This document shows positions 3,001 through 60,675 of a stretch of DNA of 64,000 bases, one piece after another. Source of the DNA: Eledone cirrhosa. Taxonomy: Eukaryota. How positions within the stretch are numbered: position 1 is the stretch's first letter; each line of letters starts with the position of its first letter. Location: contig OZ024742.1 in NCBI GenBank assembly GCA_964016885.1, positions 75,392,001 through 75,456,000 of the forward strand, in the 5' to 3' direction. A program made the position numbers and the translations under genes. Under the pieces are notes generated by a model. That model was given only the letters and a program-made list of their open reading frames with translations, made no database searches and was not told the DNA's origin.

Positions 3001-3598
3001 GCTATGTCGAACAGCTGCTGTTGCGTGTAGGACGAATCCGGTTATCAACTGAGTCCATTGTGCAGATAGCCCCGTCATTCTCCTTTAAAGAGGAGGAAGG
3101 GCAGGTAGTTTTCACCTGCCTGGTGGCCATGGCGAAAGAGATTGTGTGATGGAGAAGGTTGAAAGGGTTGAAGACGAACACTTTCCTCTCCGGCCAATCC
3201 CTGATGAACTTTTTCAAATTTCACTTGAAGAGGAAAATCAGGGTGCAGAGGCATGTGCTGTCTTCTAGTAAGTTTGTTGAAAGGTGGGTGAAAGTGGCGA
3301 GTCTGGTCCGAGTGAACGAGCCCGATCTGAGTAAACGCCAGTAGACTGAGGAGTGGGAAAATGTGAGAGTGGGCGCTTGCCCTGGTGGTCAGGGTGGACG
3401 TGTTCTTTTCTGTGGTTTTCACCTTCGGAGGTTTCCCCCTTCTTGGGGAATTTTTGTTGTTTGAATTGTTTTGGATTTCTAGCCCGATTTTGTTATAACC
3501 TGTTTACACGACCAAAACCCACTTTCTATCGTCCTGTACTGTTCTGTGCCGTCTCTAATGTTTTCTTTCGTGCCAGCTCTTGTGGCCAATAAAGAAAC

Positions 3599-13629: not shown

Positions 13630-13884
13630 GTATATATATTTTGTATATATATATATATATACATACAGTATTTACGTATCGAGAGAGAGAGAAAAAAGGG
13701 GAAGATAGGTAATACATATAGTTATTTGCCAAGTAGCGTATGCCAAAGGTGCTCGATAATAGTGCCCGCAGTATTAAATATTCGAAGTGTTAATATTTAG
13801 TGGGCTAGAGAATTAGCAGAGCGTAAGCATGTGGGAAAGTAAGAAATCGGAGAATAGACCGTTAAAACATGTTTATTTAAAACA

Positions 13885-13924
13885 GCACCTACGTACGTTT
13901 CGCCCAGTTGGGCTTCTCAAGGGC
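13885..13924 (-). ncRNA. Type I HHR motif, U3-A8 core variant
   Basis: gccc-TTGAGAA-gccc-aact-gggc-GAAA-c-gtac-g-TA-ggtgc. Confidence 0.75.
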
Positions 13925-16294
13925 ATAAATAATCAAAAGTGTGCCTTACATTGCTCGGAAAGAGTTTTTGGGGTTAAATCCACGTCAAGGTTCATTGCTC
14001 GCAAAAATAGCTTGTTTTGATTTTGCAGCAGGTCAAGGGAGGTAACTCGGGCCGGTGTTAGGGCAGTCTTTCCCGGACAAATTTTTTTTTATCCGCTACG
14101 AGATGAGGTTACAACCTTACCATTGTCGATACGCATGTAATCAACGCTTATTTTGAGATTTTTTTTTTTTGCTGCATCTGTCTGTCTGAGTCGTTTGAGG
14201 CTGGGTCTGGTATGCAAGGATAGTTTCCTGGGTGTTATTTTGCAGCGCCTGCCCGCCGGGGTGTTAAGACCTGTTGCAGGGAGATCCTTTGCACGGTTTC
14301 ACTCCTCATCCTTAACCCATCTGAAGAAGGATATTTTTAAGCGATGTGTAAAACATATCGCTGTTTCAGTTCTGCTGTTGATTAGCTCGTGGGGTGCAGT
14401 TATGATGTGGTAGAGCTCCAGAGGCAAAGATCGCATTTCCTCTTAAAGTTGTACGGTGCAGCCCTGCCGACAATATCCCAGTGCGTGGAGAAGCTGATGT
14501 GGAGAAGTCCTTTAGTGCTGTGATGTAGTCCGCGAGCGAAGTGCAGTGTCTTAGTTTTTTATTTGCGAAAGAGTGGAGATGTGTTCGAAACCTTATTTTG
14601 AACGGGCCGGAGGTAGCCTATATAATGTTTAACGCTATTGTAGCTAGTTACAGTGCATCTATATATAACCCTCTAAGGGGGCAGCGTCCTCTGACGCGGC
14701 AGTTGCAATTTTTGTCGCGGTTGCCTCTATTTCCCACGGTAAGGCTATCATTGTTGCTGCCTACGTTGTTACCCACGCTACCGCAGCTGTCGTTACCAAC
14801 ATTACAACCCACAGCACACGGGGTGGTGCGATTGTTATTCCGCACGTCATGTCCTGCATGTTCGCCAGTCATTTCGCGGTTATGCTGGTTGCGTCTGCGG
14901 ATGCCGTTGCCAACACTATTCGATGCTGCCAGGGAGTTGTTAAGGCCGATATAGTTATTGTCAGGTGTAGGTGCGTGTGAATCGAAGTGCTGTGTCTTGG
15001 TGATCTTACTGTGGTTCGTTGTTCCTATGATGTCTGCTAGGTTAGGAGTAGTAGAGAAGGATATTTTTATATTGTTCCTATTAAGAATTTTTCAAACCTA
15101 TGGATGGGCGGGAAGTTCTTCTCTAAGGCTTCGAAGAACATCCGGGGTATGTTGGAGTCCACACTCCGAGAGTAGGGGGTTGGAACCATAGGACGTTACG
15201 GTGGCGATTACGTGTCCTTGAACGTTTGCTACGGGTGGTTCCATCTAGGTGAGCGCTCTTATGTGTGTTAGTGCGCAGTCGCCCGTTCAGTGCCCCTTTC
15301 ACTTTATGCTCGGGTGCACTCTTCCTACCTCTTCTATGTTTATGTACAGGAAGATGTTGGTTGGAAGGCGTTGGTAGTAGGCCGTCGCCTTTGTTGGTTT
15401 TGTAATAGGGGAATAGTTCGAGTAATCTACAGTGGTCACCGTCGTCGGGGTCGTGATCTTTAGTGCGGTTATCTATTCTATTATATCCGAATTCAACGAC
15501 GTCGCCGCGTGATCGTTTATAGGTTTGGCTTACTATAACGTTCGTTTTATGAGGGGGTGGTTTCTAGAGCTAGCGTTAGGGATGTAGGAAATTCCTCGGT
15601 TAAAGTCGGCGCTTATCAAGGCCCTATTGTAGTAATCTGCCGCTTGGTTGAAGATATCCTAATTGGTGGATAGTCTCGAGATTCTATGTGAGATACTATA
15701 GACTATGGAGTTGAGAGTCTGCTTAGGGTGGTTGGAGGCATAATTAATATAAGAGAAGCACTCTCCAGGCTTATGGTATGGCTTGTATAAGCCCATACTC
15801 AACTCCAGGGTCACGTCCAGGAAGTTGACAACCTTGTGGTTGAGGTCCATAGTTACGGATAGGCCGTATGACTTGAATAACCTGTGTATATGTTTGTTAA
15901 GGTTCTCTATCCTACGGGGGCTATGGTTCCTAACGGTAAACAGGGCGTCGTCCCTACATACACCTCCTTGTAGGGCCGTTATCTCTTCCCTAAGCTTATG
16001 TAGGAGGTATATCCCGACCAGGTCAGTTGCTTGCGCTGAGTCACTGGACTCCATCGTGATATCGAAGTTATCAGGACGATTGGTTCTGGTCCAGTGGGAG
16101 CCTTCGAACTGGATAATGATTCTACGCGCCGCTAGAACTATGTCAATTTCTTTTTTAGTGAGGCTAGTGTTAGATGTAGCTAAGATAAGTGCCTTATTTA
16201 AGAGTATGGGGGAGATAGAGGCGTAGTAACTTGACGTGGATTTAACCCAAAAAACTATTTCCGAGAAATGTAAGGAACACTTTTTATTATTTAT

Positions 16295-16334
16295 GCCCTT
16301 GAGAAGCCCAACTGGGCGAAACGTACGTAGGTGC
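16295..16334 (+). ncRNA. Type I HHR motif, U3-A8 core variant (inverted pLTR copy)
   Basis: Identical motif to 13885-13924. Confidence 0.75.
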
Positions 16335-16389
16335 TGTTTTAAATAAACATGTTTTAACGGTCTATTCTCCGATTTCTTACTTTCCCACG

Positions 16390-21547: not shown

Positions 21548-21636
<89 letters not shown>

Positions 21637-21642
<6 letters not shown>

Positions 21643-23581
21643 TCTAGAGAAAAATACTGCAGGTAGCACATGGGTAACATGTAGTAAAATAAGTCCCTCA
21701 TCAGTGATTTGCCGAAGATCATAGATATTTCATTGCATTAAAAATCATATATCTCACTTCGGTGCAATAATAACCAAAATAAGTTATTAGGACAATTAAA
21801 ACGCGTAAAGCGAGTGAGACAGGAGAACAACAGAAAATATAGCATACCGTAAGGGAGAAACAAGCTTCAAAAATTATTCTGTTTAGCGTAAGCTAGGTGA
21901 ATATATGAGCGCTTAGAGAATAGAACCTACACGAACGAGGGCTATGAGCAGAGAGAGAAAAAATAGCGTTCGTGAGTGCAGGATGAAATGAAGAGAAGAG
22001 AGAGAAAAACAGTGAGTGAGTGAGTGAAAGTGTGAGGAAGAGTTAACGGACAAGACAAAGGGGGAGAAACAGAGAGAATGGGGGAACAGTAAGAGAGAGA
22101 GAAAAAACACAGAATCTCAGTGGTAAATATATGTATTAAAATATAGAGAAAAATACTGCAGGTAGCACATGGGTAACATGTAATAAAATAAGTCCCTCAT
22201 CAGTGATTTGCCGAAGATCATAGATATTTCATTGCATTAAAAATCATATATCTCACTTCGGTGCAATAATAACCAAAATAAGTTATTAGGACAATTAAAA
22301 CGCGTAAAGCGAGTGAGACAGGAGAACAACAGAAAATATAGCATACCGTAGGGGAGAAACAAGCTTCAAAAATTATTCTGTTTAGCGTAAGCTAGGTGAA
22401 TATATGAGCGCTTAGAGAATAGAACCTACACGAACGAGGGTTATGAGCAGAGAGAGAAAAATTAGCGTTCGTGAGTGCAGGATGAAATGAAGAGAAGAGA
22501 TAGAAAAACAATGAGTGAGTGGTGAGGAAGAGTTAACGGACAAGACAGAGGGGGAGAAACAGAGAGAATGGGGGAACAGTAAGAGAGAGAGAAAAAACAC
22601 AGAATCTCAGTGGTAAATATATGTATTAAAATATAGAGAAAAATACTGCAGGTAGCACATGGGTAACGTAATAAAATAAGTCCCTCATCAGTGATTTGCC
22701 GAAGATCATAGATATTTCATTGCATTAAAAATCATATATCTCACTTCGGTGCAATAATAACCAAAATAAGTTATTAGGACAATTAAAACGCGTAAAGCGA
22801 GTGAGACAGGAGAACAACAGAAAATATAGCATACCTTAGGGGAGAAACAAGCTTCAAAAATTATTCTGTTTAGCGTAAGCTAGGTGAATATATGAGCGCT
22901 TAGAGAATAGAACCTACACGAACGAGGGCTATGAGCAGAGAGAGAAAAAATAGCGTTCGTGAGTGCAGGATGAAATGAAGAGAAGAGAGAGAAAAACAGT
23001 GAGTGAGTGAAAGTGTGAGGAAGAGTTAACGGACAAGACAGAGGGGGAGAAACAGAGAGAATGGGGGAACAGTAAGAGAGAGAGAAAAAACACAGAATCG
23101 CAGTGGTAAATATATGTATTAAAATATAGAGAAAAATACTGCAGGTAGCACATGGGTAACATGTAATAAAATAAGTCCCTCATCAGTGATTTGCCGAAGA
23201 TCATAGATATTTCATTGCATTAAAAATCATATATCTCACTTCGGTGCAATAATAACCAAAATAAGTTATTAGGACAATTAAAACGCGTAAAGCGAGTGAG
23301 ACAGGAGAACAACAGAAAATATAGCATACCGTAGGGGAGAAACAAGCTTCAAAAATTATTCTGTTTAGCGTAAGCTAGGTGAATATATGAGCGCTTAGAG
23401 AATAGAACCTACACGAACGAGGGCTATGAGCAAAGAGAGAAAAAATAGCGTTCGTGAGTGCAGGATGAAATGAAGAGAAGAGAGAGAAAAACAGTGAGTG
23501 AGTGAAAGTGTGAGGAAGAGTTAACGGACAAGACAGAGGGGGAGAAACAGAGAGAATGGGGGAACAGTAAGAGAGAGAGAA
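21637..23581 (-). repeat. Four tandem ~495-bp units (pLTR-like) flanked by (TA)n
   Basis: aaaatactgcaggtagcacatggg recurs at ~21651, 22150, 22640 and 23133. Each unit has CTGATGAggga on the minus strand. Confidence 0.92.
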
Positions 23582-23652
<71 letters not shown>

Positions 23653-25070: not shown

Positions 25071-25469
25071 TTCGTTTCTGAATTTGTTTAGCAAGATTCT
25101 TTATCTGAAATCGTGTGTTGAAACCGATATTGTTATACTTTGGGAGGGTCATGTTGCCAATAAGAAACACACGCACCAGTCGTTTTCACTTCAATTTATT
25201 ATAATAAATTTATAATAAATTTATAATAAATTTATAAATTTATAAATTTCTGGTTGGTTGGTTCCACAACCAGATAGTTGTTTATATATTGTCATAGTTC
25301 TTTCGTCACACACTCTATGACCTCTTCAGTGACTCGGGATTCCTTTCTTTGTTTCTGTGCCTCTCCTTTGTTCTGTCCTACGCCATTTTGTTTTCAGAGG
25401 AATGCAGAACATTATTTTTATATAAGTTCCCAGTGTCCCCGCATTGCCTGGAAACTTACCTGAGAATAG

Positions 25470-25548
25470 ACTCCCTGATGACGTAAGGCTTCTCTATAGT
25501 TATTACGTAACTATATTTATCCCCTTACAGAAACTAATTAGTTGGAGT
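25470..25548 (+). ncRNA. Type I HHR motif with extended stem II
   Basis: actcc-CTGATGA-c-gtaagg...ccttac-a-GAAA-ctaattag-TT-ggagt. Stem I perfect, stem III palindrome aactaattagtt. Confidence 0.82.
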
Positions 25549-25991
25549 GAAATTTTAGTAAGTAAGTCAATTTTCATAACTTTCTTATTTACGTCTTTCA
25601 TATAATTATTCTGCATTACCCTGCATAGAACCACAAAGTTACTAGGACAAAACATATATATCTGCTAGCATGGGTATGCATCTGTATACATATGTCGGTA
25701 GATATATTAATTCTTTATAATTATCTCCAAATTATTCGTAGAGCAAAATTTGCCAAATTACTACTGTGACCGATAGTAGTAGCTAGGCTCTGTCTTAATA
25801 GCACCCCTACTCCAAGCTGGTTAACCTCAGTGTCACGTGATTGATTCTTTTGAATTTGCCACTTGACCAAGAAGGCAGTGAATTTTTCAATGGCTAGGAA
25901 TCTAGCCCCGCTCGCTTTTTTCCATCCACTGAATTATTTTTTTATGAGTCCCCAGTGTCCCCGCATTGCCTGGAAACTTAGCTGAGAATAG

Positions 25992-26070
25992 ACTCCCTGA
26001 TGACGTAAGGCTTCTCTATAGTTATTACGTAACTATATTTATCCCCTTACAGAAACTAATTAGTTGGAGT
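25992..26070 (+). ncRNA. Type I HHR motif, second copy
   Basis: Identical to 25470-25548. Confidence 0.82.
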
Positions 26071-26271
26071 GAAATTTTAGTAAGTAAGTCAATTTTCATA
26101 ACTTTCTTATTTACGTCTTTCATATAATTGTTCTGCATTCCCCTGCATAGAACCACAAAGTTACTAAGACAAAACATATATATCTGCTAGTATAGGTATG
26201 CATCTGTATACATATGTCGGTAGATATATTAATTCTTTATATATATATATATATAACTGGCAATACGTCTG

Positions 26272-28319: not shown

Positions 28320-28433
28320 AGTATATTTGGCAATATAATGTATGCTTAATTAAAAACATTTTGAAGACCTTACGCTATTGTTTTAAAGTAGTGAGTATGT
28401 CACTTACTTCTTTTTTCAACAAACAAAGGGAGA

Positions 28434-28479
28434 TAAGCTGACTGATCTGTTTTATACTGTTGGTAATCATCAGAGCTTA
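28434..28479 (-). ncRNA. HHR motif copy (GAAA>AAAA)
   Basis: taagct-CTGATGA-t-tac-caaca-gta-t-aAAA-cagatcag-TC-agctta. Confidence 0.65.
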
Positions 28480-28666
28480 GCACTCGCCTTTGCCTGTTGA
28501 AAATTATATATGTTGGATTCTTATAGAATTCCAGTAATAATCAGGAACTGATAATCAGACCTTGCGCTATTATTTTAGTGTAGTGACTATGTCACTAACT
28601 TCTTTTTTCAACAATCAGTTCCTGATTATCCAATATCTATAATTTTCAAAAGGCAAATGCGAGTGC

Positions 28667-28712
28667 TAAGCTCTGATGATTACCAACAGTATGAAAGAGA
28701 TCTGACAGCTTA
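28667..28712 (+). ncRNA. HHR motif copy (stem III and cleavage site mutated)
   Basis: taagct-CTGATGA-ttaccaacagtat-GAAA-gagatctg-ac-agctta. Confidence 0.65.
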
Positions 28713-28983
28713 TCTCCCTTTGTTTGTTGAAAAAAGAAATAAGTGACATAGTCACTACTTTAAAACAATAGTGCAAGGTCTTCAAAATGTTTTTAATTAA
28801 ACATACAATATATCACCAAATATACTATACATACATTCATGTATACATCGCTATTTCAGAGCACCAATTCTAATTTTCAATTTTGGCTGGACCGGCAATC
28901 GCTCTGTATAATCAGTTCCTGATTATTACTGGAATTCTATAAGAATCCAACATCTATAATTTTCAACAGACAAAAGTGAGTTC

Positions 28984-29029
28984 TAAGCTATGATGATTAC
29001 CAACAGTATGAAACAGATCTATCAGCTTA
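28984..29029 (+). ncRNA. HHR motif copy (C3A)
   Basis: taagct-aTGATGA-ttaccaacagtat-GAAA-cagatcta-TC-agctta. Confidence 0.65.
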
Positions 29030-29599
29030 TCTCCCTTTGTTTGTTGAAAAAAAATAAGTGACATAGTCACTTCTCTAAAATAATAGCGCAAGGTCTTCAA
29101 CATATTTTTAATTAAGCATACAGTATATTGCCAAATATACTATATATACATTCATGTATACATCGCTATTTCAGAGCACCAATTCTAATATATATATATA
29201 TATGAATTAGTATTGGTGCTCCACCATAGGGTTATGCGCGAATATGTATATCGAATAATATAGAGGATGTTTATGAAAAATATTTGCCAGCCTTCCGACT
29301 TGAAGTTTTAAGGTTGTGACCACCGTCACACATCCTAGCCTCAGTAAAAACAAGAGGAAAGTTACCGACAACGAATTGTCTCTCGTTTGCTGGTTGTCGT
29401 TGTCAAGTCTACATATACACCTTGATTTCGCTGAGACAAAAATAAGCAATAGAAACTTATGGATTTCTCACTTATGTATATGAGCTGATGAAGCTCAGAT
29501 TCATACGGAGCAGTTGCCTGTACGGCTTAAATTAAAAAAAGAATTATTATTGGTGTTCCAAAAGAGCGTTTTACGCATATATGTACGTGTTGTATATCT

Positions 29600-30172
29600 A
29601 TAATATTATAAACCTGAGTGTCGTGTGTATGTATTATGTATGTATCCTACACACCGCCCTATAGTTTCTGAGCTTTACTCTCTCCGTCGCTCTTCTCTCT
29701 CTCTATAATAGATCATTGCCCCTCTCTATAATTTAACTGCTTTACTCTCTCTGTCGCTCTTCACTCTCAAATATTATAAAGCTGAGCGTTGTAGTATCTC
29801 TCTCTCCCTCTTTCCCCCTCTCTATAATTTAACTGCTTTACTCTCTGTCTCTCTTCACTCTATATATGACAACACTCTTTTACTTTCCGTAGAGATGAGC
29901 GTTGTATGTAAGTTCGGTCAACACGTATTTATCCTACACACCTCCCTATAGTTTCTTAGCTTTACTCTCTCCGTCGCTCTTCCCTCTCTCTATAATAAAT
30001 AATTCCCCCTCTCTATAATTGAACTGCTTTACTCTCTCTGTCGCTCTTCACTCTCAAATATTATAAAGCTGAGCGTCGTCTCTCTCTCTCTCTCTCCCTC
30101 TTTCACCCTCTCTATAATTTAACTGTTTTACTCTCTATATGATAACACTCTTTTACTTTCCGTATCTACCTT
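29600..30172. repeat. CT-rich duplicated repeat (~290-bp period) with internal ctctataatttaactgctttactctct subunits
   Basis: tatcctacacac...ccctatagtttct at ~29643 and ~29930. A related piece lies at 31140-31235. Confidence 0.75.
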
Positions 30173-31270: not shown

Positions 31271-31302
31271 AGATCAAAAGATGGTTAAAGGAGTTCCATG
31301 TA

Positions 31303-31369
31303 TTTTATTATGCGCATTTCAAAAACAAACATCATCATGCAATAATATTTGTGTTTTCATCAGATAAAA
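31303..31369 (-). ncRNA. Type I HHR motif
   Basis: ttttat-CTGATGA-aaacacaaat...gtttgttttt-GAAA-tgcgca-TA-ataaaa. Confidence 0.82.
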
Positions 31370-31482
31370 CAGCACATGATATGAAGGCTAAAAGACACTT
31401 GTGGATAGTGCAGTTTTAAATCAACATATCCACAAGTGCACTATCCACAAGTGTTTTTTAGCCTTCATATCATGTCCTCCTG

Positions 31483-31549
31483 TTTTATCTGATGAAAACA
31501 CAAATATTATTGCATGATGATGTTTGTTTTTGAAATGCGCATAATAAAA
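31483..31549 (+). ncRNA. Type I HHR motif
   Basis: Same motif. Stem I ttttat/ataaaa, stem III palindrome atgcgcat. Confidence 0.82.
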
Positions 31550-31674
31550 TACATGGAACTCCTTTAACCATCTTTTGATCTTATATATTATGTATACTCC
31601 AGCCCTACAAACTGTAGAGAGCTTCTTATCCGATATCTGCATTGCTTTATTGTACTACAATAAAACTCACCTCC

Positions 31675-31728
<54 letters not shown>

Positions 31729-32857: not shown

Positions 32858-33045
32858 GATAAATCTACCAAGAGTTTACGGTAGTGTCCAATCCGTATGA
32901 AGAACTCAATGTATTCCGGATAATCATGGAAAGAAGAGATGTAATGAAAATCCACTTTCGGTGAAAGATAAACGGTATACAGAGTCAAGATAAAATATTA
33001 AACAAATAATGAATAAACAATTCCTTATATTAAACAAAAAAAGTT

Positions 33046-33196
33046 CATTATTTAACGATCGTTTCTAGGGTATATATGTGTTATAATTGGTATGCATATT
33101 CAACAGATCTATGTACAAAATTATACAAAATTATACAAATTATCAAGATTAAATATACATACCTAACACATATATACGCCGTCTTCAGAAATAATG
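33046..33196 (-). ncRNA. Type I HHR motif with ~116-nt stem II
   Basis: cattattt-CTGAAGA-c...tatatatgtgtta...taacacatatata...a-GAAA-c-gatc-g-TT-aaataatg. Perfect 8-bp stem I. Confidence 0.78.
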
Positions 33197-34033
33197 AAGT
33201 ATATTTATTGATAAAACAACAATTCAAAATATCAGTTCAAAATTGACCAATGAAAACACAAAGGGTTAAAAGCAGTTCGGTGTGTGTATATACATGTAAA
33301 ATCCTTACACATATTTTACAAAAATGTGTGTATAATTTATATACGCATACTAAAAAGATGGATGCAAACACAAAATTTCAAGGTTAATATCTCTGTAAGC
33401 TTAAAACATGCTGATAAGATGCGCATTGATACTTATGGAGTCAAGCATATAAATATATTTTTTCATACTCACACATATCAGCATAATCACACATACATGC
33501 GCGTATATGCATAAATATACACATAACCACGAACATACAAACACACACACACCCCCACTCACATTTATATATGTGGATATAAAATCATAAGCACATAGAA
33601 ATTAAATCACTCACATAAAACACTGGCACACACATTTCAAGATCAAGATACAGAAATTAGGTGGGAGGGGGGGGAGGGGTCAGTATTCAATTGTCTGAGC
33701 AGACTGCCTAATATAAATGTATCTATAAATTAAGAGAAATAAAAAAAAAATATAAAAAAAATAAAACAATAAAGTATAATAAATATAATATAATATATAT
33801 ACACATACAGATATATATACACATACATACATGTACGCGCACATAGAAATATTTACGCATACACACATACACACATACATATACAGTCATACACACACAT
33901 ACACTTACACGAACATACACATACACATATAAAAAGATATACATATACACACACACACGCGCAACACATACACACATACACATATATATAAAAAATAGAT
34001 AATAAAGATATATATCCATATATATATATATAT

Positions 34034-34086
<53 letters not shown>

Positions 34087-34539
34087 CACATACATACATA
34101 TACATACACATACATCTAAATATACATACACATACATACACACATACATGTACATACATGTACATACACATACGCACATCGATATACATATATATATATA
34201 TATATATATACATATATATACACTCACATAGACATATAGATACATACACACAACTTACATACACACGTATATATATATATATAGATGTACCTTCATACAT
34301 AGAATTAGATATATAATCATACATACATATGCACCTACTTATACTCATATATATAAATACATACTCTTTCATATATGTGTATATACATAAAAAACAATAC
34401 AACCTCACCAAACTCAGACATACAAATAAAAATAATGATAAAAAGGCATATGTATATACATACACACACGCATTAATAGAGATATATATATATATACACA
34501 CATACACACACACATATATATATATACACACATATATAT

Positions 34540-34592
<53 letters not shown>

Positions 34593-34723
34593 TAGACTCA
34601 TACATATATATATATATATATATATATAAACATATATATCCACACACTCATACCACCATAAATACACATACAAACACCCACATGTATATATATATATATA
34701 TCTATATACACACACGTATATAC

Positions 34724-34762
<39 letters not shown>

Positions 34763-34928
34763 CACATAATAAAAAACAGACATGCACATATATATATATA
34801 TATATATATTTTATTACTCTTATATATACACATATTATATATACATACACAACCTCACTTATACACATATACACATAAGTTATATTATAATAATAAAGAA
34901 TAATATACATATATATATATACATATAC

Positions 34929-34960
<32 letters not shown>

Positions 34961-35086
34961 ATACATACACATACATACATACACATAAACATATACATAC
35001 ATAAATACACACATACGAATAAAGACATATATTCACACATAGACACCTATATATATATATATATATATATATCTATATATATATAT

Positions 35087-35129
<43 letters not shown>

Positions 35130-36288
35130 CACACACACACACACACACAGACACACATACACACTCACATATATATATATATATATATGTGTATGTGTGT
35201 GTGCGCACATACACATATATACACACACACACATACAAACACACACAAACACATACATATGCATACGTGCACACACACACACATATATCACATAGATACG
35301 AAGATAAAACGAAGATAAACATATAAATAGAGAGACATACATATATATACACAACACACATACACATACATACATACACGCATATACATATACATACATA
35401 TACACATATATATATTCCTATATATACAAGCATACACATACATACACATATATACACACACATACACATATACATACAACACATTCACATACACATACAT
35501 ATATAATGCATATATATACATATATATACACATACATTTGTATGTACAATCATATATACACACACAATCTTACATTCATATTTGCATGCTCATATATGTA
35601 TTTTTATATTTAGATATAAATACCCAAACCTATATAGACACCTACTTACATATATATTCATACATAGACGCTTACAAATACAGATGATAATAGTATGGGG
35701 GAAAGGGGGGGTTTGGAGAAGGGGATCAAAGTAAATATATGTTTAAAGAAACATATAATATTTTCCGTATCTTAATTCAATGTATGTTCTTATATATTTT
35801 CAGTGCTAGGAAATACGAAATCTATGCATCTCAAAATAAATAAGTATACCATTAATCATATGTTAACCAAACCAAAGATAGTCAACATATTGATTTCTAA
35901 GGTGTAAATTAGTTAGGTTTATAATATTTGAAGCAGAATTTTGAAGTCAAACAGTAGTAGATTATTAATTACAGTATAACTAAATTAAAGTTAATAACGT
36001 TATGGTATCAATATTAGGAGATGAATTTAGTAATAGGGAAAAGAAACCCAAATAAAAATAAAATAAAGTATTACATCGGTAGTAGCATATAAATTATATG
36101 TTAATTAAATTAAAAATTATATATTTATTTCAATAGTATACGTTAATTAGTATATGTTAATTAGGTATACAATACATAAAGCAGATATTGTATTTCATCA
36201 ATAGCATAATATAATTATATGCAAATAGAAATCAAAATTAATACGCATACATATACATATACATACACATACACATATACATACATAT

Positions 36289-36337
<49 letters not shown>

Positions 36338-37173
36338 TACACATATATACATACATACAGATACACATACACAACACACACATATACATACACATATACA
36401 TATACATATCTTTTTCAAAAAATTGCACAGAATATATTAACTAGGTATATATCCAAAACACATCCCATTCTATGATTACATGACATTCTGCAATTCGTCT
36501 GTATAAGGATACTAATTTTAAACAAATTAAAATTAAAATTTTTAGGTTGATTAAAACTAAAACCAAATAATAAATATATTTCCAAAATATATATTAATTA
36601 GGTCTATAATACTAAAAATTATTTCTCTGTCATTGGATACATGATATTATTTTGTTATATTTTATATATAGGTTTGGGTATTTATATCTAAATATAAAAA
36701 TACATATATGAGCATGCAAATATGAATGTAAGATTGTGTGTGTATATATGATTGTACATACATATGTATGTGTATATATATGTATATATATGCATTATAT
36801 ATGTATGTGTATGTGAATGTGTTGTATGTATATGTGTATGTGTGTGTATATATGTGTATGTATGTGTATGCTTGTATATATAGGAATATATATATGTGTA
36901 TATATGTATGTATATGTATATGCGTGTATGTATGTATGTGTATGTGTGTTGTGTATATATATGTATGTCTCTCTATTTATATGTTTATCTTCGTTTTATC
37001 TTCGTATCTATGTGATATATGTGTGTGTGTGTGCACGTATGCATATGTATGTGTTTGTGTGTGTTTGTATGTGTGTGTGTGTATATATGTGTATGTGCGC
37101 ACACACACATACACATATATATATATATATATATGTGAGTGTGTATGTGTGTCTGTGTGTGTGTGTGTGTGTG

Positions 37174-37216
<43 letters not shown>

Positions 37217-37342
37217 ATATATATATATAGATATATATATATATATATATATATAGGTGTCTATGTGTGAATATATGTCTTTATTCGTATGTGTGTATTT
37301 ATGTATGTATATGTTTATGTGTATGTATGTATGTGTATGTAT

Positions 37343-37374
<32 letters not shown>

Positions 37375-37540
37375 GTATATGTATATATATATATGTATAT
37401 TATTCTTTATTATTATAATATAACTTATGTGTATATGTGTATAAGTGAGGTTGTGTATGTATATATAATATGTGTATATATAAGAGTAATAAAATATATA
37501 TATATATATATATATGTGCATGTCTGTTTTTTATTATGTG

Positions 37541-37579
<39 letters not shown>

Positions 37580-37708
37580 GTATATACGTGTGTGTATATA
37601 GATATATATATATATACATGTGGGTGTTTGTATGTGTATTTATGGTGGTATGAGTGTGTGGATATATATGTTTATATATATATATATATATATATATGTA
37701 TGAGTCTA

Positions 37709-37761
<53 letters not shown>

Positions 37762-38214
37762 ATATATATGTGTGTATATATATATATGTGTGTGTGTATG
37801 TGTGTATATATATATATATCTCTATTAATGCGTGTGTGTATGTATATACATATGCCTTTTTATCATTATTTTTATTTGTATGTCTGAGTTTGGTGAGGTT
37901 GTATTGTTTTTTATGTATATACACATATATGAAAGAGTATGTATTTATATATATGAGTATAAGTAGGTGCATATGTATGTATGATTATATATCTAATTCT
38001 ATGTATGAAGGTACATCTATATATATATATATACGTGTGTATGTAAGTTGTGTGTATGTATCTATATGTCTATGTGAGTGTATATATATGTATATATATA
38101 TATATATATATATGTATATCGATGTGCGTATGTGTATGTACATGTATGTACATGTATGTGTGTATGTATGTGTATGTATATTTAGATGTATGTGTATGTA
38201 TATGTATGTATGTG

Positions 38215-38265
<51 letters not shown>

Positions 38266-39100
38266 ATATATATATATATATGGATATATATCTTTATTAT
38301 CTATTTTTTATATATATGTGTATGTGTGTATGTGTTGCGCGTGTGTGTGTGTATATGTATATCTTTTTATATGTGTATGTGTATGTTCGTGTAAGTGTAT
38401 GTGTGTGTATGACTGTATATGTATGTGTGTATGTGTGTATGCGTAAATATTTCTATGTGCGCGTACATGTATGTATGTGTATATATATCTGTATGTCTAT
38501 ATATATTATATTATATTTATTATACTTTATTGTTTTATTTTTTTTATATTTTTTTTATTTCTCTTAATTTATAGATACATTTATATTAGGCAGTCTGCTC
38601 AGACAATTGAATACTGACCCCTCCCCCCCCTCCCACCTAATTTCTGTATCTTGATCTTGAAATGTGTGTGCCAGTGTTTTATGTGAGTGATTTAATTTCT
38701 ATGTGCTTATGATTTTATATCCACATATATAAATGTGAGTGGGGGTGTGTGTGTGTTTGTATGTTCGTGGTTATGTGTATATTTATGCATATACGCGCAT
38801 GTATGTGTGATTATGCTGATATGTGTGAGTATGAAAAAATATATTTATATGCTTGACTCCATAAGTATCAATGCGCATCTTATCAGCATGTTTTAAGCTT
38901 ACAGAGATATTAACCTTGAAATTTTGTGTTTGCATCCATCTTTTTAGTATGCGTATACAAATTATACACACATTTTTGTAAAATATGTGTAAGGATTTTA
39001 CATGTATATACACACACCGAACTGCTTTTAACCCTTTGTGTTTTCATTGGTCAATTTTGAACTGATATTTTGAATTGTTGTTTTATCAATAAATATACTT

Positions 39101-39251
39101 CATTATTTCTGAAGACGGCGTATATATGTGTTAGGTATGTATATTTAATCTTGATAATTTGTATAATTTTGTATAATTTTGTACATAGATCTGTTGAATA
39201 TGCATACCAATTATAACACATATATACCCTAGACACGATCGTTAAATAATG
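39101..39251 (+). ncRNA. Inverted copy of the long-stem-II HHR, core mutated (GAAA>GACA)
   Basis: Reverse complement of 33046-33196 except A>C at 39234. Confidence 0.7.
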
Positions 39252-39298
39252 AACTTTTTTTGTTTAATATAAGGAATTGTTTATTCATTATTTGTTTA

Positions 39299-39349
<51 letters not shown>

Positions 39350-48899: not shown

Positions 48900-50080
48900 T
48901 AATAACGGAACACACTCTCTGTTTGACCCAACAGAAATGGAAAGACACATCCAACACTTCATCAACCGCATGCAGTTTTCTGCCTACAACAAAAGAGCCA
49001 GAATCAGGGTATACGAAGGAGCCATGGAGAAGTATAAGACCCTCATAGAACTGGACATGAAAGGAATTGGCCCATTATACAGGAGCAAATCATGAAATAG
49101 CTTAGATAGGACTAGACATAAGATAGGGAAAGTCACCTCATGGTACGACAACCAGAGATACCAGAGTGTCATGTTCGTGGACGCTACCCCTGAAGGGAAA
49201 TTAGTTAACCAGTGTAGAAATGCCCTGATAAAGACACACTTAAAGATTAAGGTGGTAGAAAAGCCAGGAACCACCATAAAATCCCTGATCAGCAAAACGT
49301 AACCTTTTAAGAAAACCCACTGTACTAATAGGAAATGTATTATATGCAAAGTAAACCCCCGGATAAACTATAAAACTAGAAACGTAGTCTATAACATAAT
49401 ATGTACAGAGGGTACTTGCAGAAACATGACAACATACATAGGCGAGAGAGCTCGTAGCATAGGTGAAAAGATAGACCAACACTGGGGAGGATCTAAAAGG
49501 AAGAAAAAACGGTTCAGTACTATACAAAACACGCCAGACAACAACATGGCGGTAACATAGACAACATAGAAATTAAAATAATATCTAAACATAGAAATGA
49601 CCCAGCAGATAGGCAAATCAGAGTGGCCAGTGAAATAGAACTTAGAAGGCCAAAGCTAAACAGAAAAAATGAATGGAATAACAACACCCAAACAAACAAT
49701 ACTGACCTAAGAGAAATATAAATAAATATATACACAAGCACTATAACAACAAACACATATAAACACACACTAGTAAACCAAAATAGAATACAATAACCAA
49801 AACACAGTCACCTAAACTCGAACACACATCAAACACTATACACACACGCAAACGCATGCGCAGAGAAGAAGACAAAAATAAACAAATAAATACACAGATT
49901 AAATAAAGATGAGGTAGACATACAATGCAACAGGAGGAAACATAATAGCATCACTAACGATGTTGCAGATGTGCAACGAAAGAACTTTGTTAGATTATTA
50001 ATGTGTTTATGTCTATATTATATCTTTATTTTTCACCGTTGGTAGTCAATGGTAAACATTGAGGACCGAATAAATTAACT
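48900..50080 (+). mobile_element. Degenerate PLE 3' part (non-Naiad-type linker and GIY-YIG) with a decayed HHR at ~49950-49995
   Basis: GPLYR, VMFVDATPEGKL, KVVEKPG, CIIC, NVVYNIIC...TYIGER. HHR reads ctaacga-t-gttgca-gatg-tgcaac-GAAA. Confidence 0.75.
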
Positions 50081-50271: not shown

Positions 50272-50419
<148 letters not shown>

Positions 50420-50464
50420 GAGAGTAAAACAAAGAAGCCTTCAATACATCAAAAGTCTTTATTA

Positions 50465-50502
50465 GCCGACAATGTTTCGTCCTATTAAGGACTCATCAGG
50501 GC
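50465..50502 (-). ncRNA. Minimal type I HHR with canonical core
   Basis: gcc-CTGATGA-gtcct-taat-aggac-GAAA-c-att-g-TC-ggc. Confidence 0.9.
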
Positions 50503-50749
50503 AATTCAAACAACAAGAAGTAATAACGGCAGATACAAGCCAGAAGCTCCGAAGAATATGGAGTGTACATATACTAAAGTATTGCAAAAATATATAATAA
50601 AAATAATAAAAATATATAATGAAAATTACTAAGGATGTATGTGACATTAAGAACCATATTACAAATATAGTCCAAAGCAAAAAAACCTATAGCTAGACAA
50701 AGGTGGTTATATAGATCAGGAATCATATATAATATAATGTAATAATAAT

Positions 50750-51591: not shown

Positions 51592-53400
51592 CTGATATAT
51601 TCCATTATTTATTTTTAGTTTAGGTTCCTTTGTTTGCCAACGTCATTATTATTATCATCATTATTACCATTGGTTTCCTGATGACTCTTTATTTTAGCTC
51701 TCATAATCTTTTGGCTACTGTACCATATCTATCTTCTTACGCATTAGATTTTCACTATTACACCTTTTGAATTATATAAGATTATATATTTTACGCTATT
51801 TATTTTATTTTTATTTTTATTTTTACTTTCATTTTTATTTTTATTCGGATTCTTCTTTGGATAACCCCCCCCCCCATGCGCACATAAACTTATTGTCATC
51901 CCCTCCAAATTGACTATGATTATATTTAACACCCCCCTCTTTTACGCTCCTTTCTATTAAGTAATATAGTATATCGACTATATTTATGCCCCTTTGCATC
52001 CTCCATATATTTCTTCATTTCTGTCCCTATTGGCCTACCTTAATTCTGCTTAAGTCATTTTTTAGGTATCGTTATGTATATGATAGGAACAAATTTTCAT
52101 TCCTTTTTGTAAACATTGTAACGAAATATTAATGTTTATAAACTTTAATTACTTAAACTATAGCTAATATTATACTGCCTTATTAGATAGTTTAAATATT
52201 TTTAATATTAATTTATCAAATAGGGTTTTCGAGTCATTTTCACGTGTTATTTCCTTAGGTTTTACTTAAATACTTAAATACTTAACTGCATGTGAGACCT
52301 AAATGCATACGTTTGTTTTTGTTTTTTAATCTCCGGGTGATTCTATTTATATATTTATTTATTTTATTCTATATTTTATACTGTATATTTTATTAATATT
52401 GTGCATTGCATTTACTGTCTGGCATTTACTCACTCATCCATATATATGTATGTCTACCAACCTTGTAATTATAAGTAATTATATATTATATTATGTTAAC
52501 TTATTTTATATAATATATTATATTGTATTTTTTATTGTAATATTGATCCTTATCACTTACCGTTAATTATATGTAACATTATGATATGTTAAACTTTATA
52601 TATCATGTAGGATCTTTGTATTTTTGTACCCACAAAATTCCTTTGGGGATATTGTACAATTTATTTATTTTTCCTCGCCTACTCTGTAACCCAATATGAA
52701 TTGATTTGTTAACTTATATATTGTTGATTATAAGTGTTAGTATATTGTATATTATACATCTTGGTATGTTATATTATATTATAATTATATTATTATTGTG
52801 ACATCTATATTGTTTGTGTAAATTAACCGGAGATTATCCATTCTATTATATTGTATTATATAGTATATAATTGTATTGTTTATTATTCATTATATATGCT
52901 ACTTATAATTATATCATATTATTACCCCATGTATACTGGGTAGATGTATTAGTATTATCATTATTATTATTCTCATTCCTATCATGCTCATTTTCATATT
53001 CAAACTCTTGATAAGGTTAAATTTGTGCAGTTGAAGATAGATGTGTGTATTGTTGTAGGTGTATGTGTGTGTGCGTGTGCACACATATATGCATATGCAT
53101 AATGTACCTTTTGATTTTTCATTGTAACTTTAATGTTGGTAAAAGTATAATTATATTATATTACATTATATTATATATGATTCCTGATCTATATAACCAC
53201 CTTTGTCTAGCTATAGGTTTTTTTGCCTTGGACTATATTTGTAATATGGTTCTTAATGTCACATACATCCTTAGTAATTTTCATTATATATTTTTATTAT
53301 TTTTATTATATATTTTTGCAATACTTTAGTATATGTACACTCCATATTCTTCGGAGCTTCTGGCTTGTATCTGCCGTTATTACTTCTTGTTGTTTGAATT

Positions 53401-53438
53401 GCCCTGATGAGTCCTTAATAGGACGAAACATTGTCGGC
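53401..53438 (+). ncRNA. Minimal type I HHR with canonical core
   Basis: gcc-CTGATGA-gtcct-taat-aggac-GAAA-c-att-g-TC-ggc, followed by AATAAA. Confidence 0.9.
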
Positions 53439-53587
53439 TAATAAAGACTTTTGATGTATTGAAGGTTTCTTTGTTTTACTCTCTTAATTTTTCGGCTCTG
53501 TTTAACTACATTGAGCTATACCGTTTACTGTCATTTCTATAATACGAAGAGGGGGTTTAACTCCAATACGCTCCAGTATTTTAACCT

Positions 53588-56075: not shown

Positions 56076-56459
56076 ATGTTTTTCTCTAGTAAATGGTGCC
56101 TTGCGTATAGGTATCTGTTCAGCAGAAGCGGCTTGTTGGGTATTTCCTTCCAGACCAAAACGCCATAACGCATTCTTTCACATATGCACATTCATCTATT
56201 TATCCATAAAATAGATACGCACACACGCATATATATACATACATACATATATATATATATGTATATATAATATATGTATGCATATTTATATCTATGTATG
56301 TATGTATGTATGTATGAATGCAAGTATGTATGAATGTATATATGCATGTATGTATGTATATATGTATGTATGTTTGTTTGTATGTTATCTCTTTCTCTTA
56401 ATTTCGAGTATATCTTTTTGACTGGCCACCTTCCTGGTGGCAAGGTTGTAAAAGAAAAG

Positions 56460-56843
56460 AAATTGTCATCTCTGGAATCGCAAGAATGTTTTGCAAATTG
56501 TGAAGGTGCCAGCTATCGCAGCCATTTGTAGACTATGAATTAGGAAGCTGCGCTTTTTGTCCGCAAATCCAAGTTCAGTCATACTTTGGTCCAAGCGGGT
56601 TGGCATATAAACCGTAGCTCCAATAATGACGGGTGTGAAGCTAAAGATGTATCTTGTATACTGGATTTGTAAACTCCTCACCAATGGTCCGTAGATGTAT
56701 TTTTCTGACAACGCTTACATCAAGTGGGCAGCTGATCTCCACAACAGAACACATTTTCAATGTGTGGTCCCAAACAACAATATCAGGCTGGTTGTGCTTT
56801 AATTTGGTGGCAGTTTTTATTTTCAGGTTCCACCAGTACTCTT
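56460..56843 (-). mobile_element. RLE fragment of an R4/Dong-like non-LTR element
   Basis: WWNLKIKT...HNQPDIVVWD...VVEISCPLD and YGPL...PVIIGA. Confidence 0.72.
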
Positions 56844-57436
56844 TATGTATGTATGAATGTATGTATGTATGTATGTATGTATGTATGTATGTATGTATGT
56901 ATGTATGTATGTATGTATGTATGTATGTATGTATGCATGTATGTATGTATGTATGTATGTATGTATGTATGTGTAAAATATAAATAAGGATTGCTCTGCT
57001 AAAATATACTAAAATATTTGTGTAACTTCCACAAACTTCTGTCGTGACATTCTCGAGTCCAGTGACCAACAAATTGTTGTATTTTGATGTTTCAGAATAC
57101 AAAAATTAATTAAAAACTTACCACACGAAAAGACAGCGTGTGTTGTCCTATCTATATGCTCCCTCATTTACTTACATCTCAATATAACATCTCAATATAA
57201 CATGGCTAAAATTCAAATTTTGCAAAAAGAAAACGGTCAAATGAACTAGATACATCGCACTGCCCCCCGCCACCACAATAACTTCTACACTCTCTCCCCA
57301 CCATCACATGTCATTACCCTATCTAGACAAAAGTCATCGACCTGTTGTCAGACTCTCTACTCTCTGTTGAATGTGTATATATATATATATATATGTAATA
57401 TATAAGAACAAAAGATGGTTAAAAGAGTTCCATGTA

Positions 57437-57503
57437 TTTTATTATGCGCATTTCAAAAACAAATATCATCATATAATAATATTTGTGTTTTCATCAGATA
57501 AAA
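57437..57503 (-). ncRNA. Type I HHR motif
   Basis: Same family as 31483-31549. Confidence 0.8.
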
Positions 57504-58953
57504 CAGGAGGACATGATATGAAGGTTAAAAAACACTTGTGGATAGTTCAGTTTTAAATCATCATATGAGAAGTAGTTTTAGATTGATGTGTGATATTGTG
57601 AAAAATATTTTATTTAGAGGGGGTGGGGGTGGAAAGGATGAAAAAAAGGAGGAGATGAGAGTGAAGGTGGAGAGGGAGGAGCATAATGAGGAAGGATGAG
57701 ATAGGAGGAGAGATAGGCGATAGAGAGAGAGAGATAGCTTTTATAACTGAGAAAAATATATTGTTTTACATAGAGAGGTTGAAAACCGTTGGAAGATAAT
57801 GTATAAATTAAAAGAATTTGAAAATTAACGAAGAGAAAAATAATGTAAAGTTAAGGTTTGTATATTGAGGGGTTTGATAATATGTGCGAAGAAAAAGAAA
57901 GAGTTAATATGTATTGAGAATAATGAGTTAGATGAAAGGGAGAAAAGATAATGAATTGAGGATGAATAATCTAACGTCAAAAAAATGTATATGTTTACGA
58001 AGGATTTTTACAAGGTGATATAGAGTAAGAATGTGTTGTATTATGTAATAATTGATTCTATGTTAGGCAAGAGTGAGAAAAGGTGCAGATTAGGGGTTAG
58101 ACATTAGAAGAAGAAGAGAAGTGATAAATAGGGGTGATGTAGAAAGAGTAGACAAGTATTATAGAATTTGAAAATTAACGAAGAGAAAAGTAATGTAAAG
58201 TTAAGGTTTGTATATTGGAGGGTTTGATAATATGTGCGAAGAAAAAGAAAATATTAATATGTATTGTGAATAATGAGTTAGATGAAAGGGAGAAAAGATA
58301 ATGAATTGAGGATGAATAATCTAACGTCAAAAAAAATGTATATGTTTACGAAGGATTTTTACAAGGTGATATAGAGTAAGAGTGTGTTGTATTATGTAAT
58401 AATTGATTCTATGTTAGGCAGGAGTGATAAAAGGTACAGATTAGGGGTTAGACATTAGAAGAAGAAGGGAAGTGATAAATAGAGGTGATGTAGAAAGAGG
58501 AGACAAGTATTATAGAATGTATAATAACCTTTAAAATAAGGTAGAACGATGGGTATATTTTTAAAAGAAGTGTATATATATATATGTGCCTTTGAGAAAA
58601 AGATTCTAAATTGATAAAGAATTGAGTATTAGCTGTATACTTTGTGAAATCTCTTATTGAATGTATGCAAGCAGATAGAAAACAAGTCAGTGCGTCTATT
58701 TATTATAGAATCTAGATTAGAGATAATGGTACATTTTTCATTTAGACAGAGATTGCAGATTTTAGATAGAGAACTGTTCTAGTATGGAGACGCAGAAGAA
58801 ACCTTCTTCCAAAAGATGCCATATTTAATATTTTTGTCTTTCAAGGACCATATGAGTTCTGAGAGAGCCGTGTTGGTTCTTTTAAGTTTGTATTTAAAAG
58901 ACTAATGATGGTTATAAAGACGAGCTGTAAAAGAGGTGGAAGTGGAGCCAAAA

Positions 58954-59047
58954 TGGAAGTGGAGTGGAAGTGGAGTGGAAGTGGAGTGGAAGTGGAGTGG
59001 AAGTGGAGTGGAAGTGGAGTGGAGCCAAAATGGAAGTGGAGCCAAAA
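58954..59047 (+). repeat. Junctional (TGGAAGTGGAG)n array
   Basis: Six perfect 11-mers at 58954-59019, then tggagccaaaa and tggaagtggagccaaaa. Confidence 0.95.
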
Positions 59048-60151
59048 TTCCTTCACCTATTTTGGCTCCACTTCCACCTCTTTTAAAGCTCTTCTTTATA
59101 ACCATGATTCGTCTTTTAAATACAAACTTAAAAGAACCAACACGGCCCTCTCAGAACTCATATGGTCCTTGAAAGACAAAAATATTAAATATAGCATCTT
59201 TTGGAAGAAGGTATCTTCTGCGCTTCCATACTTGAACAGTTCTCTATCTAAAATCTGCAATCTCTGTCTAAATGAAAAATTTACCATTATCTAGATTCTA
59301 TAATAAATAGACGCACTGACTCGTTTTCTATCTGCTTGCATAAATTCCATAAAACATTTCACAAAGTATACAGCTAATACTCAATTCTTTATCAATTTAG
59401 AATCTTTTTCTCAAAGGCACATATATATATATACACTTCTTTTAAAAATATACCCATCTTTCTACCTTATTTCAAAGGTTATTATACATTCTATAATACT
59501 TGTCTACTCTTTCTACATCACCCCTATTTATCACTTCCCTTCTTCTTCTAATGTCTAACCCTTAATCTGTACCTTTTCTCACTCTTGCCTAACATAGAAT
59601 CAATTATTACATAATACAACACATTCTTACTCTATATCACCTTGTAAAAATCCTTCGTAAACATATACATTTTTTTTGACGTTAGATTATTCATCCTCAA
59701 TTTATTATCTTTTCTCCCTTTCATCTAACTCATTATTCTCAATACATATTAACTCTTTCTTTTTCTTCGCACATATTATCAAACCCCTCAATATACAAAC
59801 CTTAACTTTACATTATTTTTCTCTTCGTTAATTTTCAAATTCTTTTAATTTATACATTATCTTCCAACGGTTTTCAACCTCTCTATGTAAAACAATATAT
59901 CTTTCTCAGTTATAAAAGCTATCTCTCTCTCTCTCTATCACCCATCTCTCCTCCTATCTCATCCTTCCTCATTATACTCCTCCCTCTCCACCTTCACTCT
60001 CATCTCCTCCTTTTTTTTCATCCTTTCCAACCCCCCCTCTAAATAAAATATTTTTCCCAATATCACACATCAATCTAAAACTACTTCTCATATGTTGATT
60101 TAAAACTGAACTATCCACAAGTGTTTTTTAACCTTCATATCACGTCCTCTG

Positions 60152-60218
60152 TTTTATCTGATGAAAACACAAATATTATTATATGATGATATTTGTTTTT
60201 GAAATGCGCATAATAAAA
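60152..60218 (+). ncRNA. Type I HHR motif
   Basis: ttttat-CTGATGA-aaacacaaat...atttgttttt-GAAA-tgcgca-TA-ataaaa. Confidence 0.8.
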
Positions 60219-60675
60219 TACATGGAACTCTTTTAACCATCTTTTGTTCTTATATATTATATTATGTATACTCCAGTCCTACAAACTCTAGAGTGCTTCT
60301 TATCCGATATCTGCATTGCTTTATTGTACTACAATAAAACTCACCTCCTACATATATATATGTATGTATATGTGTGTATATACATCACTCAGTCAAACGA
60401 CCAGATTTCAACCCCAACATCTACAACAACAACACCGGCACTAATGTTTACAGCAACAACAGCTTCAGAATGAACCGAAATTAACATTTACAACAACAAC
60501 AACAGCGGCATCAAAAGATAAAAAAAAGAAAAAAGAAGAAAAAAAACAACAAAAAAACTCAAAATAACAAAACACACACACGCACACAACACAACAACAA
60601 CATCAACTGCCACCACCATCACTACCGCCGCCGCCATCACCATCACCAGCGACCGGGCCTTAAGAAAACAACTTT

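What the first reader, a model, noticed from the sequence alone, without database searches (positions are those of the whole stretch)
58931..59080. Telomerase-like reiterative copying at a Penelope inversion junction
Seen: the inverted arm ends gaggtggaagtggagccaaaa, followed by six perfect TGGAAGTGGAG units (58954-59019) and two partial re-copies ending ccaaaa. The sense arm then starts and contains the template once (ttttggctccacttccacctc, the YIG-motif codons). The template has internal redundancy (tcca..tcca) that allows realignment, and the product is a G-rich strand. Established: PLE RTs are the closest retroelement relatives of telomerase RT. Inference: repeat-addition by a PLE RT. A small junction duplication (atccacaagtg twice, ~31427-31452) in the same family fits this.
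Basis: partly seen in the sequence, partly recalled or inferred. Interest (0 to 1): 0.75.

Follow-up and report, generated by a model that had tools for sequence, protein, structure and literature searches.

The report
Stuttered seam of a Penelope-type insertion
Six identical 11-letter repeats sit exactly where the two back-to-back halves of a jumping gene meet, the extreme case of a stutter found at roughly one in ten such seams in this genome, and they were likely copied from DNA while the seam was being sealed rather than added telomerase-style from RNA, though a repeat ladder at the element's fixed start keeps the telomerase-like reading open.

Summary
The array is real: 6 x TGGAAGTGGAG (58954-59019) at the head-to-head junction of a Hydra-type Penelope-like element. 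It lies inside three copies of the left arm's last 17 bases and is absent from other copies. The 11-nt period has 1 nt of redundancy on the element, but 4 nt once the neighbouring 5-nt stutter exists in DNA. Short re-copies mark 12 (automated) to 16 (by eye) of 154 sister junctions; some include both arms, so were copied from DNA. An RTE control gave 1 of 57 (p=0.19, inconclusive). The same 11-mer forms an unrelated 126-copy array. New: at the family's fixed 5' start an 8-nt unit forms a ladder (168 places with >=2 copies, 12 with about 3 or more, maximum 5). Best reading: repeated re-priming on DNA while two cDNA ends are joined (Pol theta-type), then slippage (0.55). RT re-copying of RNA stays open (0.27). 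The scan noted such stutters before in other genomes.

The parts
57384..58954 (-). Left arm of a 5'-truncated Hydra-type PLE (C-terminal part of the GIY-YIG domain + 3' UTR), short outer end in (TA)n; carries a 355-bp tandem duplication (57813-58167 / 58163-58518) also seen in other family copies
58937..58953 (+). Last 17 templated bases of the left arm (TGGAAGTGGAGCCAAAA), copy 1 of the 17-nt unit
58954..59019 (+). Six perfect 11-nt units TGGAAGTGGAG
59020..59030 (+). 5-nt stutter TGGAG plus CCAAAA; with the preceding unit it forms the middle 17-nt copy and supplies the 4-nt TGGA redundancy at 11-nt spacing
59031..59047 (+). Third, complete copy of the 17-nt unit; overlaps the start of the right arm by AAT
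59046..60351 (+). Right (sense) arm: end of the GIY-YIG coding region, 3' UTR and about 80-110 nt longer outer end ('tail') in (TA)n; 95-97% identical to the left arm; holds the template once at 59066-59076
31271..31677 (.). Second, short head-to-head insertion of the same family; junction near 31429-31434 with a 15-nt back-jump that duplicates ATCCACAAGTG (31428, 31443)

Best explanation
This is the seam of a two-armed insertion of a Hydra-type Penelope-like retroelement, and the repeats were likely made on a DNA template: two cDNAs, likely primed from the two cut strands of a (TA)n target, were likely joined by a polymerase-theta-type end-joining reaction that re-primed several times on the opposite cDNA end. 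Shown: the junction consists of three copies of the last 17 bases of the left arm, a 5-nt stutter in the middle copy and five extra 11-mers, closed by a 3-nt overlap. Inferred: the 17-nt triplication and the 5-nt stutter came from abortive extension and re-annealing with 1-3 nt of pairing; the stutter created a 4-nt TGGA redundancy at 11-nt spacing, on which the unit then slipped up to six copies, during fill-in or in later replication. The element's own RT acting as a DNA-dependent polymerase could replace Pol theta in this scheme; that would not be telomerase-like RNA-templated addition.
For: Two separately primed arms: 42 of 47 short two-armed loci have one long and one short outer end, as do both loci in the window; PAc nicks and extends both strands and starts RT at two sites (PMC11167929, parts 1-2 of 4 read). 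Registers: on the element the 11-nt unit has 1 nt of redundancy, the unused 6-nt and 12-nt periods 5 and 3; with the stutter the 11-nt period has 4. 6-nt product: 0 found; intact motif 1,427. Sister junctions: of 154, 79 simple (microhomology 0:16, 1:18, 2:12, 3:8, 4:10, >=5:15), 38 with untemplated filler, 37 complex; re-copies of 8-36 nt period at 12-16 of 154 vs 3 of 288 distal windows, p=4e-4. L104 and L128 repeat sequence from both arms, L115 and L188 repeat or contain strand switches, which the element RNA cannot template. One of 57 RTE 5' ends has a perfect 15-nt duplication spanning host and element. In the 8-nt ladder all 8 loci with >=3 copies and two full-length arms have the same palindromic join, against 9 of 17 single-copy loci (p=0.026, post hoc), so repeat number seems to depend on the partner end. 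The same 11-mer forms a 125.6-copy array with no match to the element. Pol theta makes iterative templated insertions, mostly <25 bp, primed by >=1 bp (PMC12426944, PMC5068794, PMC2943611, PMC4912351, passages).
Against: Sequence cannot tell on which strand a re-copy was made, so most simple cases fit RT equally well. Seven of eight restarts begin at the same base and three runs end at the same base, as end-to-end template switching on an RNA fragment would give (1-nt overhang, PMC8363836 abstract). Re-copies are more frequent at PLE than at RTE junctions (12 of 154 vs 1 of 57), though not significantly (p=0.19; a PLE junction has two element ends, an RTE junction one). 29 of 30 sampled 8-nt dimers lie at the fixed 5' start, in the register of a 3-nt GAT..GAT alignment region. 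The array has 0 substitutions while each arm has about 8-9 private ones per 330 nt (P 0.08-0.27, uninformative). Pol theta was not looked up in this genome.
Confidence: 0.55

Rival explanations
1. The PLE reverse transcriptase itself re-copied RNA: it ran off the template end and switched end-to-end, with a 1-nt overhang, onto short RNA remnants (17, 11 and 11 nt), or realigned by 3 nt at the capped 5' start, adding repeats to the cDNA before the arms were joined.
For: Shared start and end points of the runs and 1-nt pairing; most sister re-copies run exactly to the arm's end; ladder at the fixed start: 168 places with >=2 units, 12 with about 3 or more, up to 5; G precedes the start in 14 of 33 non-overlapped arms where long copies have C; non-LTR-type RTs make serial 1-nt-overhang switches (PMC8363836, abstract).
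Against: Needs three different, partly overlapping fragments here; cannot make L104, L128, L115; does not predict dependence of copy number on the partner end; continuation rises with copy number (12 of 168, then 3 of 12), as expected when homology grows on DNA, though numbers are small; no PLE RT has been shown to do this in the papers searched.
Confidence: 0.27
2. Only replication slippage after insertion: the seam was simple, or carried one small duplication, and the hairpin-forming inverted repeat made it slip later.
For: The 11-mer expands elsewhere and reads from a probably related organism hold such arrays; the array is mutation-free; >=3-copy ladders sit on perfect palindromes.
Against: Seeds are tied to junctions: 29 of 30 dimers at the 5' start, both 12-nt duplications of this motif within 50 nt of a 5' junction; 1-nt-register 17-nt jumps are not slippage products. 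Slippage is part of the best explanation for the five extra units, but not for the seed.
Confidence: 0.1
3. One reading: telomerase-like realignment on the internal tcca..tcca redundancy of the template.
For: Perfect G-rich units at a cDNA end; every restart begins with TGGA; PLE RTs are sister to TERT (PMC8557442, passages).
Against: That redundancy gives a 6-nt period; observed periods are 17, 11 and 5; the 6-nt product occurs 0 times in the genome; no fixed boundary, the site is one of many random truncation points.
Confidence: 0.04
4. Assembly or sequencing artefact at a fold-back.
For: No read or contig in four laid runs spans the junction.
Against: The arms differ by about 5% with private substitutions and by a 355-bp duplication, unlike a read fold-back; those runs differ from the window at fixed positions and may be another species; similar scars recur at many loci.
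Confidence: 0.04

Closest known systems
Hydra clade of C-terminal EN+ Penelope-like elements (Craig et al. 2021, PMC8557442, passages read)
   Same: RT then GIY-YIG, CxCX5C linker, DKT, CxxC and CxH around the EN E/N, (TA)n targets, inverted 5'-truncated arm, tail on one end
   Different: The passages read describe no re-copies at the inversion junction; the tail here is about 80-110 nt rather than 30-40; no phylogeny was run
Templated insertions of Pol theta-mediated / synthesis-dependent MMEJ (PMC12426944, PMC5068794, PMC2943611, PMC4912351; passages read)
   Same: Flank-derived 8-25 nt copies, 1-3 nt priming, fillers, strand switches, repeated cycles
   Different: Here the two ends are inferred cDNA ends, and six identical units are an extreme; the enzyme is not shown
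R2 snap-back 5' junctions and L1 twin/dual priming (PMC11371274, PMC2912911, PMC2837659; passages read)
   Same: cDNA 3' ends prime extra DNA synthesis before joining; two cDNAs annealed by microhomology
   Different: PLE arms are head-to-head copies of the same 3' end; tandem multi-copy arrays are not described in those passages
Telomerase repeat addition; DRT2/DRT10 tandem cDNA (mechanism recalled; PMC12039810, PMC12632851 seen as search listings only)
   Same: Perfect short tandem copies of a template's last bases; the 8-nt ladder at the fixed start has a boundary and a 3-nt alignment region
   Different: This locus has no fixed boundary, mixed periods, ignores the best alignment region, and occurs once; the ladder affects only a few percent of ends

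Membership tests
Hydra-clade PLE | Single ORF, RT followed by C-terminal GIY-YIG | tested here: met
   595-aa frame in sister copy L063 with YRDD at 155 and YECKV..YFG at 475; read by motif, no Pfam hit at E<=0.1
Hydra-clade PLE | CxCX5C linker; CxxC and CxH around EN E and N; DKG changed to DKT | tested here: met
   CNCPIKNKC 454, CNLCLNE 554, CLH 582, HSDKT in L069, against PMC8557442
Hydra-clade PLE | (TA)n targeting, inverted arm, tail on one end | tested here: met
Hydra-clade PLE | Placement in the RT phylogeny | not tested
   no reference PLE set was fetched
Hydra-clade PLE | Hammerhead motif in the pLTR | tested here: inconclusive
   no Rfam hit at gathering in the window, none to a hammerhead at E<=5 in 59700-60450; minimal hammerheads can be missed
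Telomerase-like repeat addition | Realignment through the template's terminal redundancy sets the period | tested here: not met
   this locus: 11-nt unit has 1-nt redundancy, predicted 6-nt period absent. The 8-nt ladder at the fixed start does fit a 3-nt redundancy
Telomerase-like repeat addition | Fixed template boundary and one repeat unit | tested here: not met
   periods 17, 11, 5; runs end at two positions; only 1 of 18 inversions near this motif has an array
Telomerase-like repeat addition | RNA-templated synthesis by the RT, processive | not testable with these tools
   needs biochemistry
Pol theta-type templated insertion | Insert copied from within tens of bases of the junction, short, primed by 1-3 nt | tested here: met
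Pol theta-type templated insertion | Same scar at junctions of unrelated origin at a similar rate | tested here: inconclusive
   RTE 1 of 57 vs PLE 12 of 154, p=0.19
Pol theta-type templated insertion | Dependence on POLQ | not testable with these tools
   needs mutants; POLQ gene not searched

The most novel reading that the evidence does not exclude
Hydra/Penelope RT has a latent telomerase-like repeat-addition activity: at the fixed, probably capped 5' end of its RNA the cDNA end ATC realigns on the GAT eight bases back and adds (CAACATAT)n, giving the genomic ladder of 2 to 5 units, and at broken ends it re-copies remnants, giving arrays like this one.
Probability: 0.2. Interest if true: 0.8.

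Novelty: new variant of a known kind. Interest (0 to 1): 0.42.

Why it matters
How PLEs form their tandem/inverted structures is named as an open question (PMC8557442, passage). The seams record the last step of insertion: two cDNA ends joined with iterative re-priming. If host end joining does it, PLE seams are a large natural archive of Pol theta-type scars and a source of new minisatellites. If the RT does it, the sister enzyme of telomerase already adds repeats at a template boundary. The 8-nt ladder at the fixed start gives a defined template and predicted period, so the question is directly testable with an existing kind of in vitro assay.

Tried and rejected
Pfam scan of four family frames: no hit. 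Rfam: nothing at gathering score; weak hits are chance. Public runs: best share 0.43 of the words; laid runs X3-X6 differ at fixed positions and no piece spans the junction, so no evidence on copy number or empty site. Array in the family sequence: rejected. C1 minisatellite as a PLE junction product: no match to the element. Host-side (non-inverted) PLE 5' ends: only 16 were called, at least two wrongly, none with a re-copy; too few to use. Shuffle controls: 33 of 2,963 ends under the stricter placement rule; 119 of 2,997 under the looser rule, which is inflated because real re-copies travel with the shuffled half, so the distal-window control was used instead. Age test by substitutions: not significant. 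Naiad clade considered from memory and rejected because EN is C-terminal. PMC13282606 (passages) gave nothing on junctions. A recalled paper on I-factor 3' repeats was not held and is not used as evidence.

Full report
Observation. The sequence is as described. The left arm, an antisense copy, ends with the 17-mer TGGAAGTGGAGCCAAAA (58937-58953). Six perfect TGGAAGTGGAG follow (58954-59019), then TGGAG CCAAAA (59020-59030), then the full 17-mer again (59031-59047), and the sense arm starts at 59046 through an AAT overlap. An exact dimer of the unit occurs at three places in the 3.0-Gb genome, the reversed control at none. The second duplication is at 31428 and 31443. No contig or read of four laid runs spans the junction.

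The element. A sister copy holds a 595-aa frame with YRDD, a CxCX5C linker, a YECKV..YFG nuclease start, CxxC before the EN glutamate and CxH after; another copy has DKT. These are the features given for the Hydra clade of C-terminal EN+ PLEs (PMC8557442, passages); Pfam gave no hit and no tree was built. The family is large: 1,427 exact copies of the 18-nt motif and 4,759 head-to-head pairs at a motif near the 3' end. The arms are 95-97% identical, share subfamily variants and each has about 8-9 private changes per 330 nt; the left arm has a 355-bp duplication seen in other copies, the right lacks it. In 42 of 47 short two-armed loci one arm has the long and one the short outer end, as in both window loci. 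With the two start sites and two-strand priming shown for PAc (PMC11167929, parts 1-2 of 4 read), I infer two separately primed cDNAs whose 3' ends meet at the seam. Arkhipova's self-priming idea for such palindromes (PMC3846280, passages) does not explain arms that differ in this way.

Register. A pattern that catches 6-, 11- and 12-nt duplications directly behind the family context found two places, both 12-nt, none 6-nt; both lie within 50 nt of a 5' junction, one in a nest of three strand switches. The window's array is not caught by that pattern because it begins at the stutter. With the 5-nt stutter present, the 11-nt period gains a 4-nt TGGA redundancy, and the array ends in exactly that partial unit. 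The simplest parse is three 17-nt copies, one 5-nt stutter, and five extra 11-mers slipped on DNA that already held the stutter. The unit is slip-prone: a 125.6-copy array of it on contig C1 has no match to the element.

Survey. I parsed 154 junction loci: 18 of 18, 29 of 32 (three are junctions already in the first set), 25 of 25, 35 of 44 and 47 of 4,759; L170 and L196 look like one junction on two contigs. 79 are simple joins, 38 have untemplated filler, 37 are complex. An automated rule called 13 tandem re-copies; I dropped L130, whose repeat is in both arms, leaving 12 with this locus; by eye L115, L180, L185 and L224 add up to 16. Only this locus exceeds three copies. The same rule called 3 of 288 windows deeper in the arms (p=4e-4). 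L104 and L128 repeat bases of both arms, and L115 repeats a strand switch, so these had a DNA template. As control I took an RTE-like LINE (RVT_1; 4,952 motif copies): of 92 motif copies 57 had a called 5' end, about five of them internal deletions and one at an N gap by eye; one has a perfect 15-nt duplication spanning host and element.

A ladder at the fixed start. Many short arms begin at one site, ATATGTTGAT, where long copies have C in front and 14 of 33 non-overlapped short arms have G; an earlier scan note reads such a G as the copied cap, which I did not test further. The first 8 bases are tandemly repeated at 168 places, and a near-triple pattern matches 12. Among those 12, one has two units plus a part, eight have three, two have four and one has five. 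Of 30 sampled dimer places 29 are at a 5' end and one is internal (L336, a near-duplicate of L335, was left out of the class counts). It is equally the register in which the opposite arm's 3' end would re-anneal on this cDNA end. Two hints favour DNA: continuation rises (12 of 168, then 3 of 12), and all 8 loci with three or more units and two full-length arms have the same palindromic join against 9 of 17 single-unit loci (p=0.026), while 9 of 16 two-unit loci do (single vs two-or-more p=0.33). These tests are post hoc, small and on differently selected sets.

Mechanism. Best (0.55): iterative re-priming on DNA while two cDNA ends are joined, Pol theta-type, then slippage. Pol theta insertions are flank-templated, mostly under 25 bp, primed by minimal pairing, iterative, and reach about 35% of joins in Arabidopsis (PMC12426944; also PMC5068794, PMC2943611, PMC4912351; passages). 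Snap-back synthesis from cDNA ends is seen at R2 5' junctions (PMC11371274, passages). Rival (0.27): the RT re-copies RNA ends or remnants by 1-nt-overhang switching (PMC8363836, abstract); seven of eight restarts here share one base. Later slippage alone 0.10, the literal tcca model 0.04, artefact 0.04.

Novelty. Paper searches returned no report of re-copy ladders at PLE junctions; the library lacks most subscription papers and supplements were not read. The scan's own notes describe the same stutter, at about one end in ten to twenty, in other genomes, with split verdicts on the enzyme; they are unchecked leads, not support. What this window adds is the register argument against the proposed realignment and a countable ladder at a fixed boundary. 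Verdict: real feature, new variant of a known kind of junction scar, interest 0.42; 0.8 if RT repeat addition at the fixed start proves true (probability 0.2).

Noticed in passing
G000:C1:214202630-214204030 (L050:4134-5530): 1.4-kb minisatellite of the same 11-nt unit (125.6 copies, 86% matches) with no match to the PLE
   Followed up: partly
L319-L360 (family 5' start, equivalent to window 60091-60100): Ladder of (ATATGTTG)n, n=2-5, at the fixed start of the short arms
   Followed up: yes
L188 (G000:C5:68.499 Mb): Nest of three strand switches at the same motif, with 12-nt unit copy numbers 1-3-2-1 across the four segments
   Followed up: partly
L229 (G000:C1:219.7 kb): Perfect 15-nt duplication spanning host and element at an RTE-like 5' junction
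   Followed up: partly
L229-L318: Many RTE-like 5' ends abut (TA)n, often a short run between unique host DNA and the element
   Followed up: no
window 32990-39307: Large, near-perfect inverted repeat (99.6-100% in the non-simple parts) around a centre near 36 kb; very young or an assembly fold-back
   Followed up: no
window 50415-50749 / 53155-53488; 13831-13989 / 16230-16388; 28327-29189: Further inverted pairs, the first 99% identical and flanked by (TA)n, possibly other two-armed insertions
   Followed up: no
window 21628-23582: Four copies of a 495-bp unit at 97% between TA repeats; other tandem pairs at 25411-26241 and 29638-30079
   Followed up: no
window 1784-3323, 48933-49024 and 56385-56845: Fragments matching frames in L056 (L1-like RT, 66%), L055 (another Penelope-like RT, 80%) and L063 (LINE C-terminus, 90%); labels from my reading of the translations
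   Followed up: no
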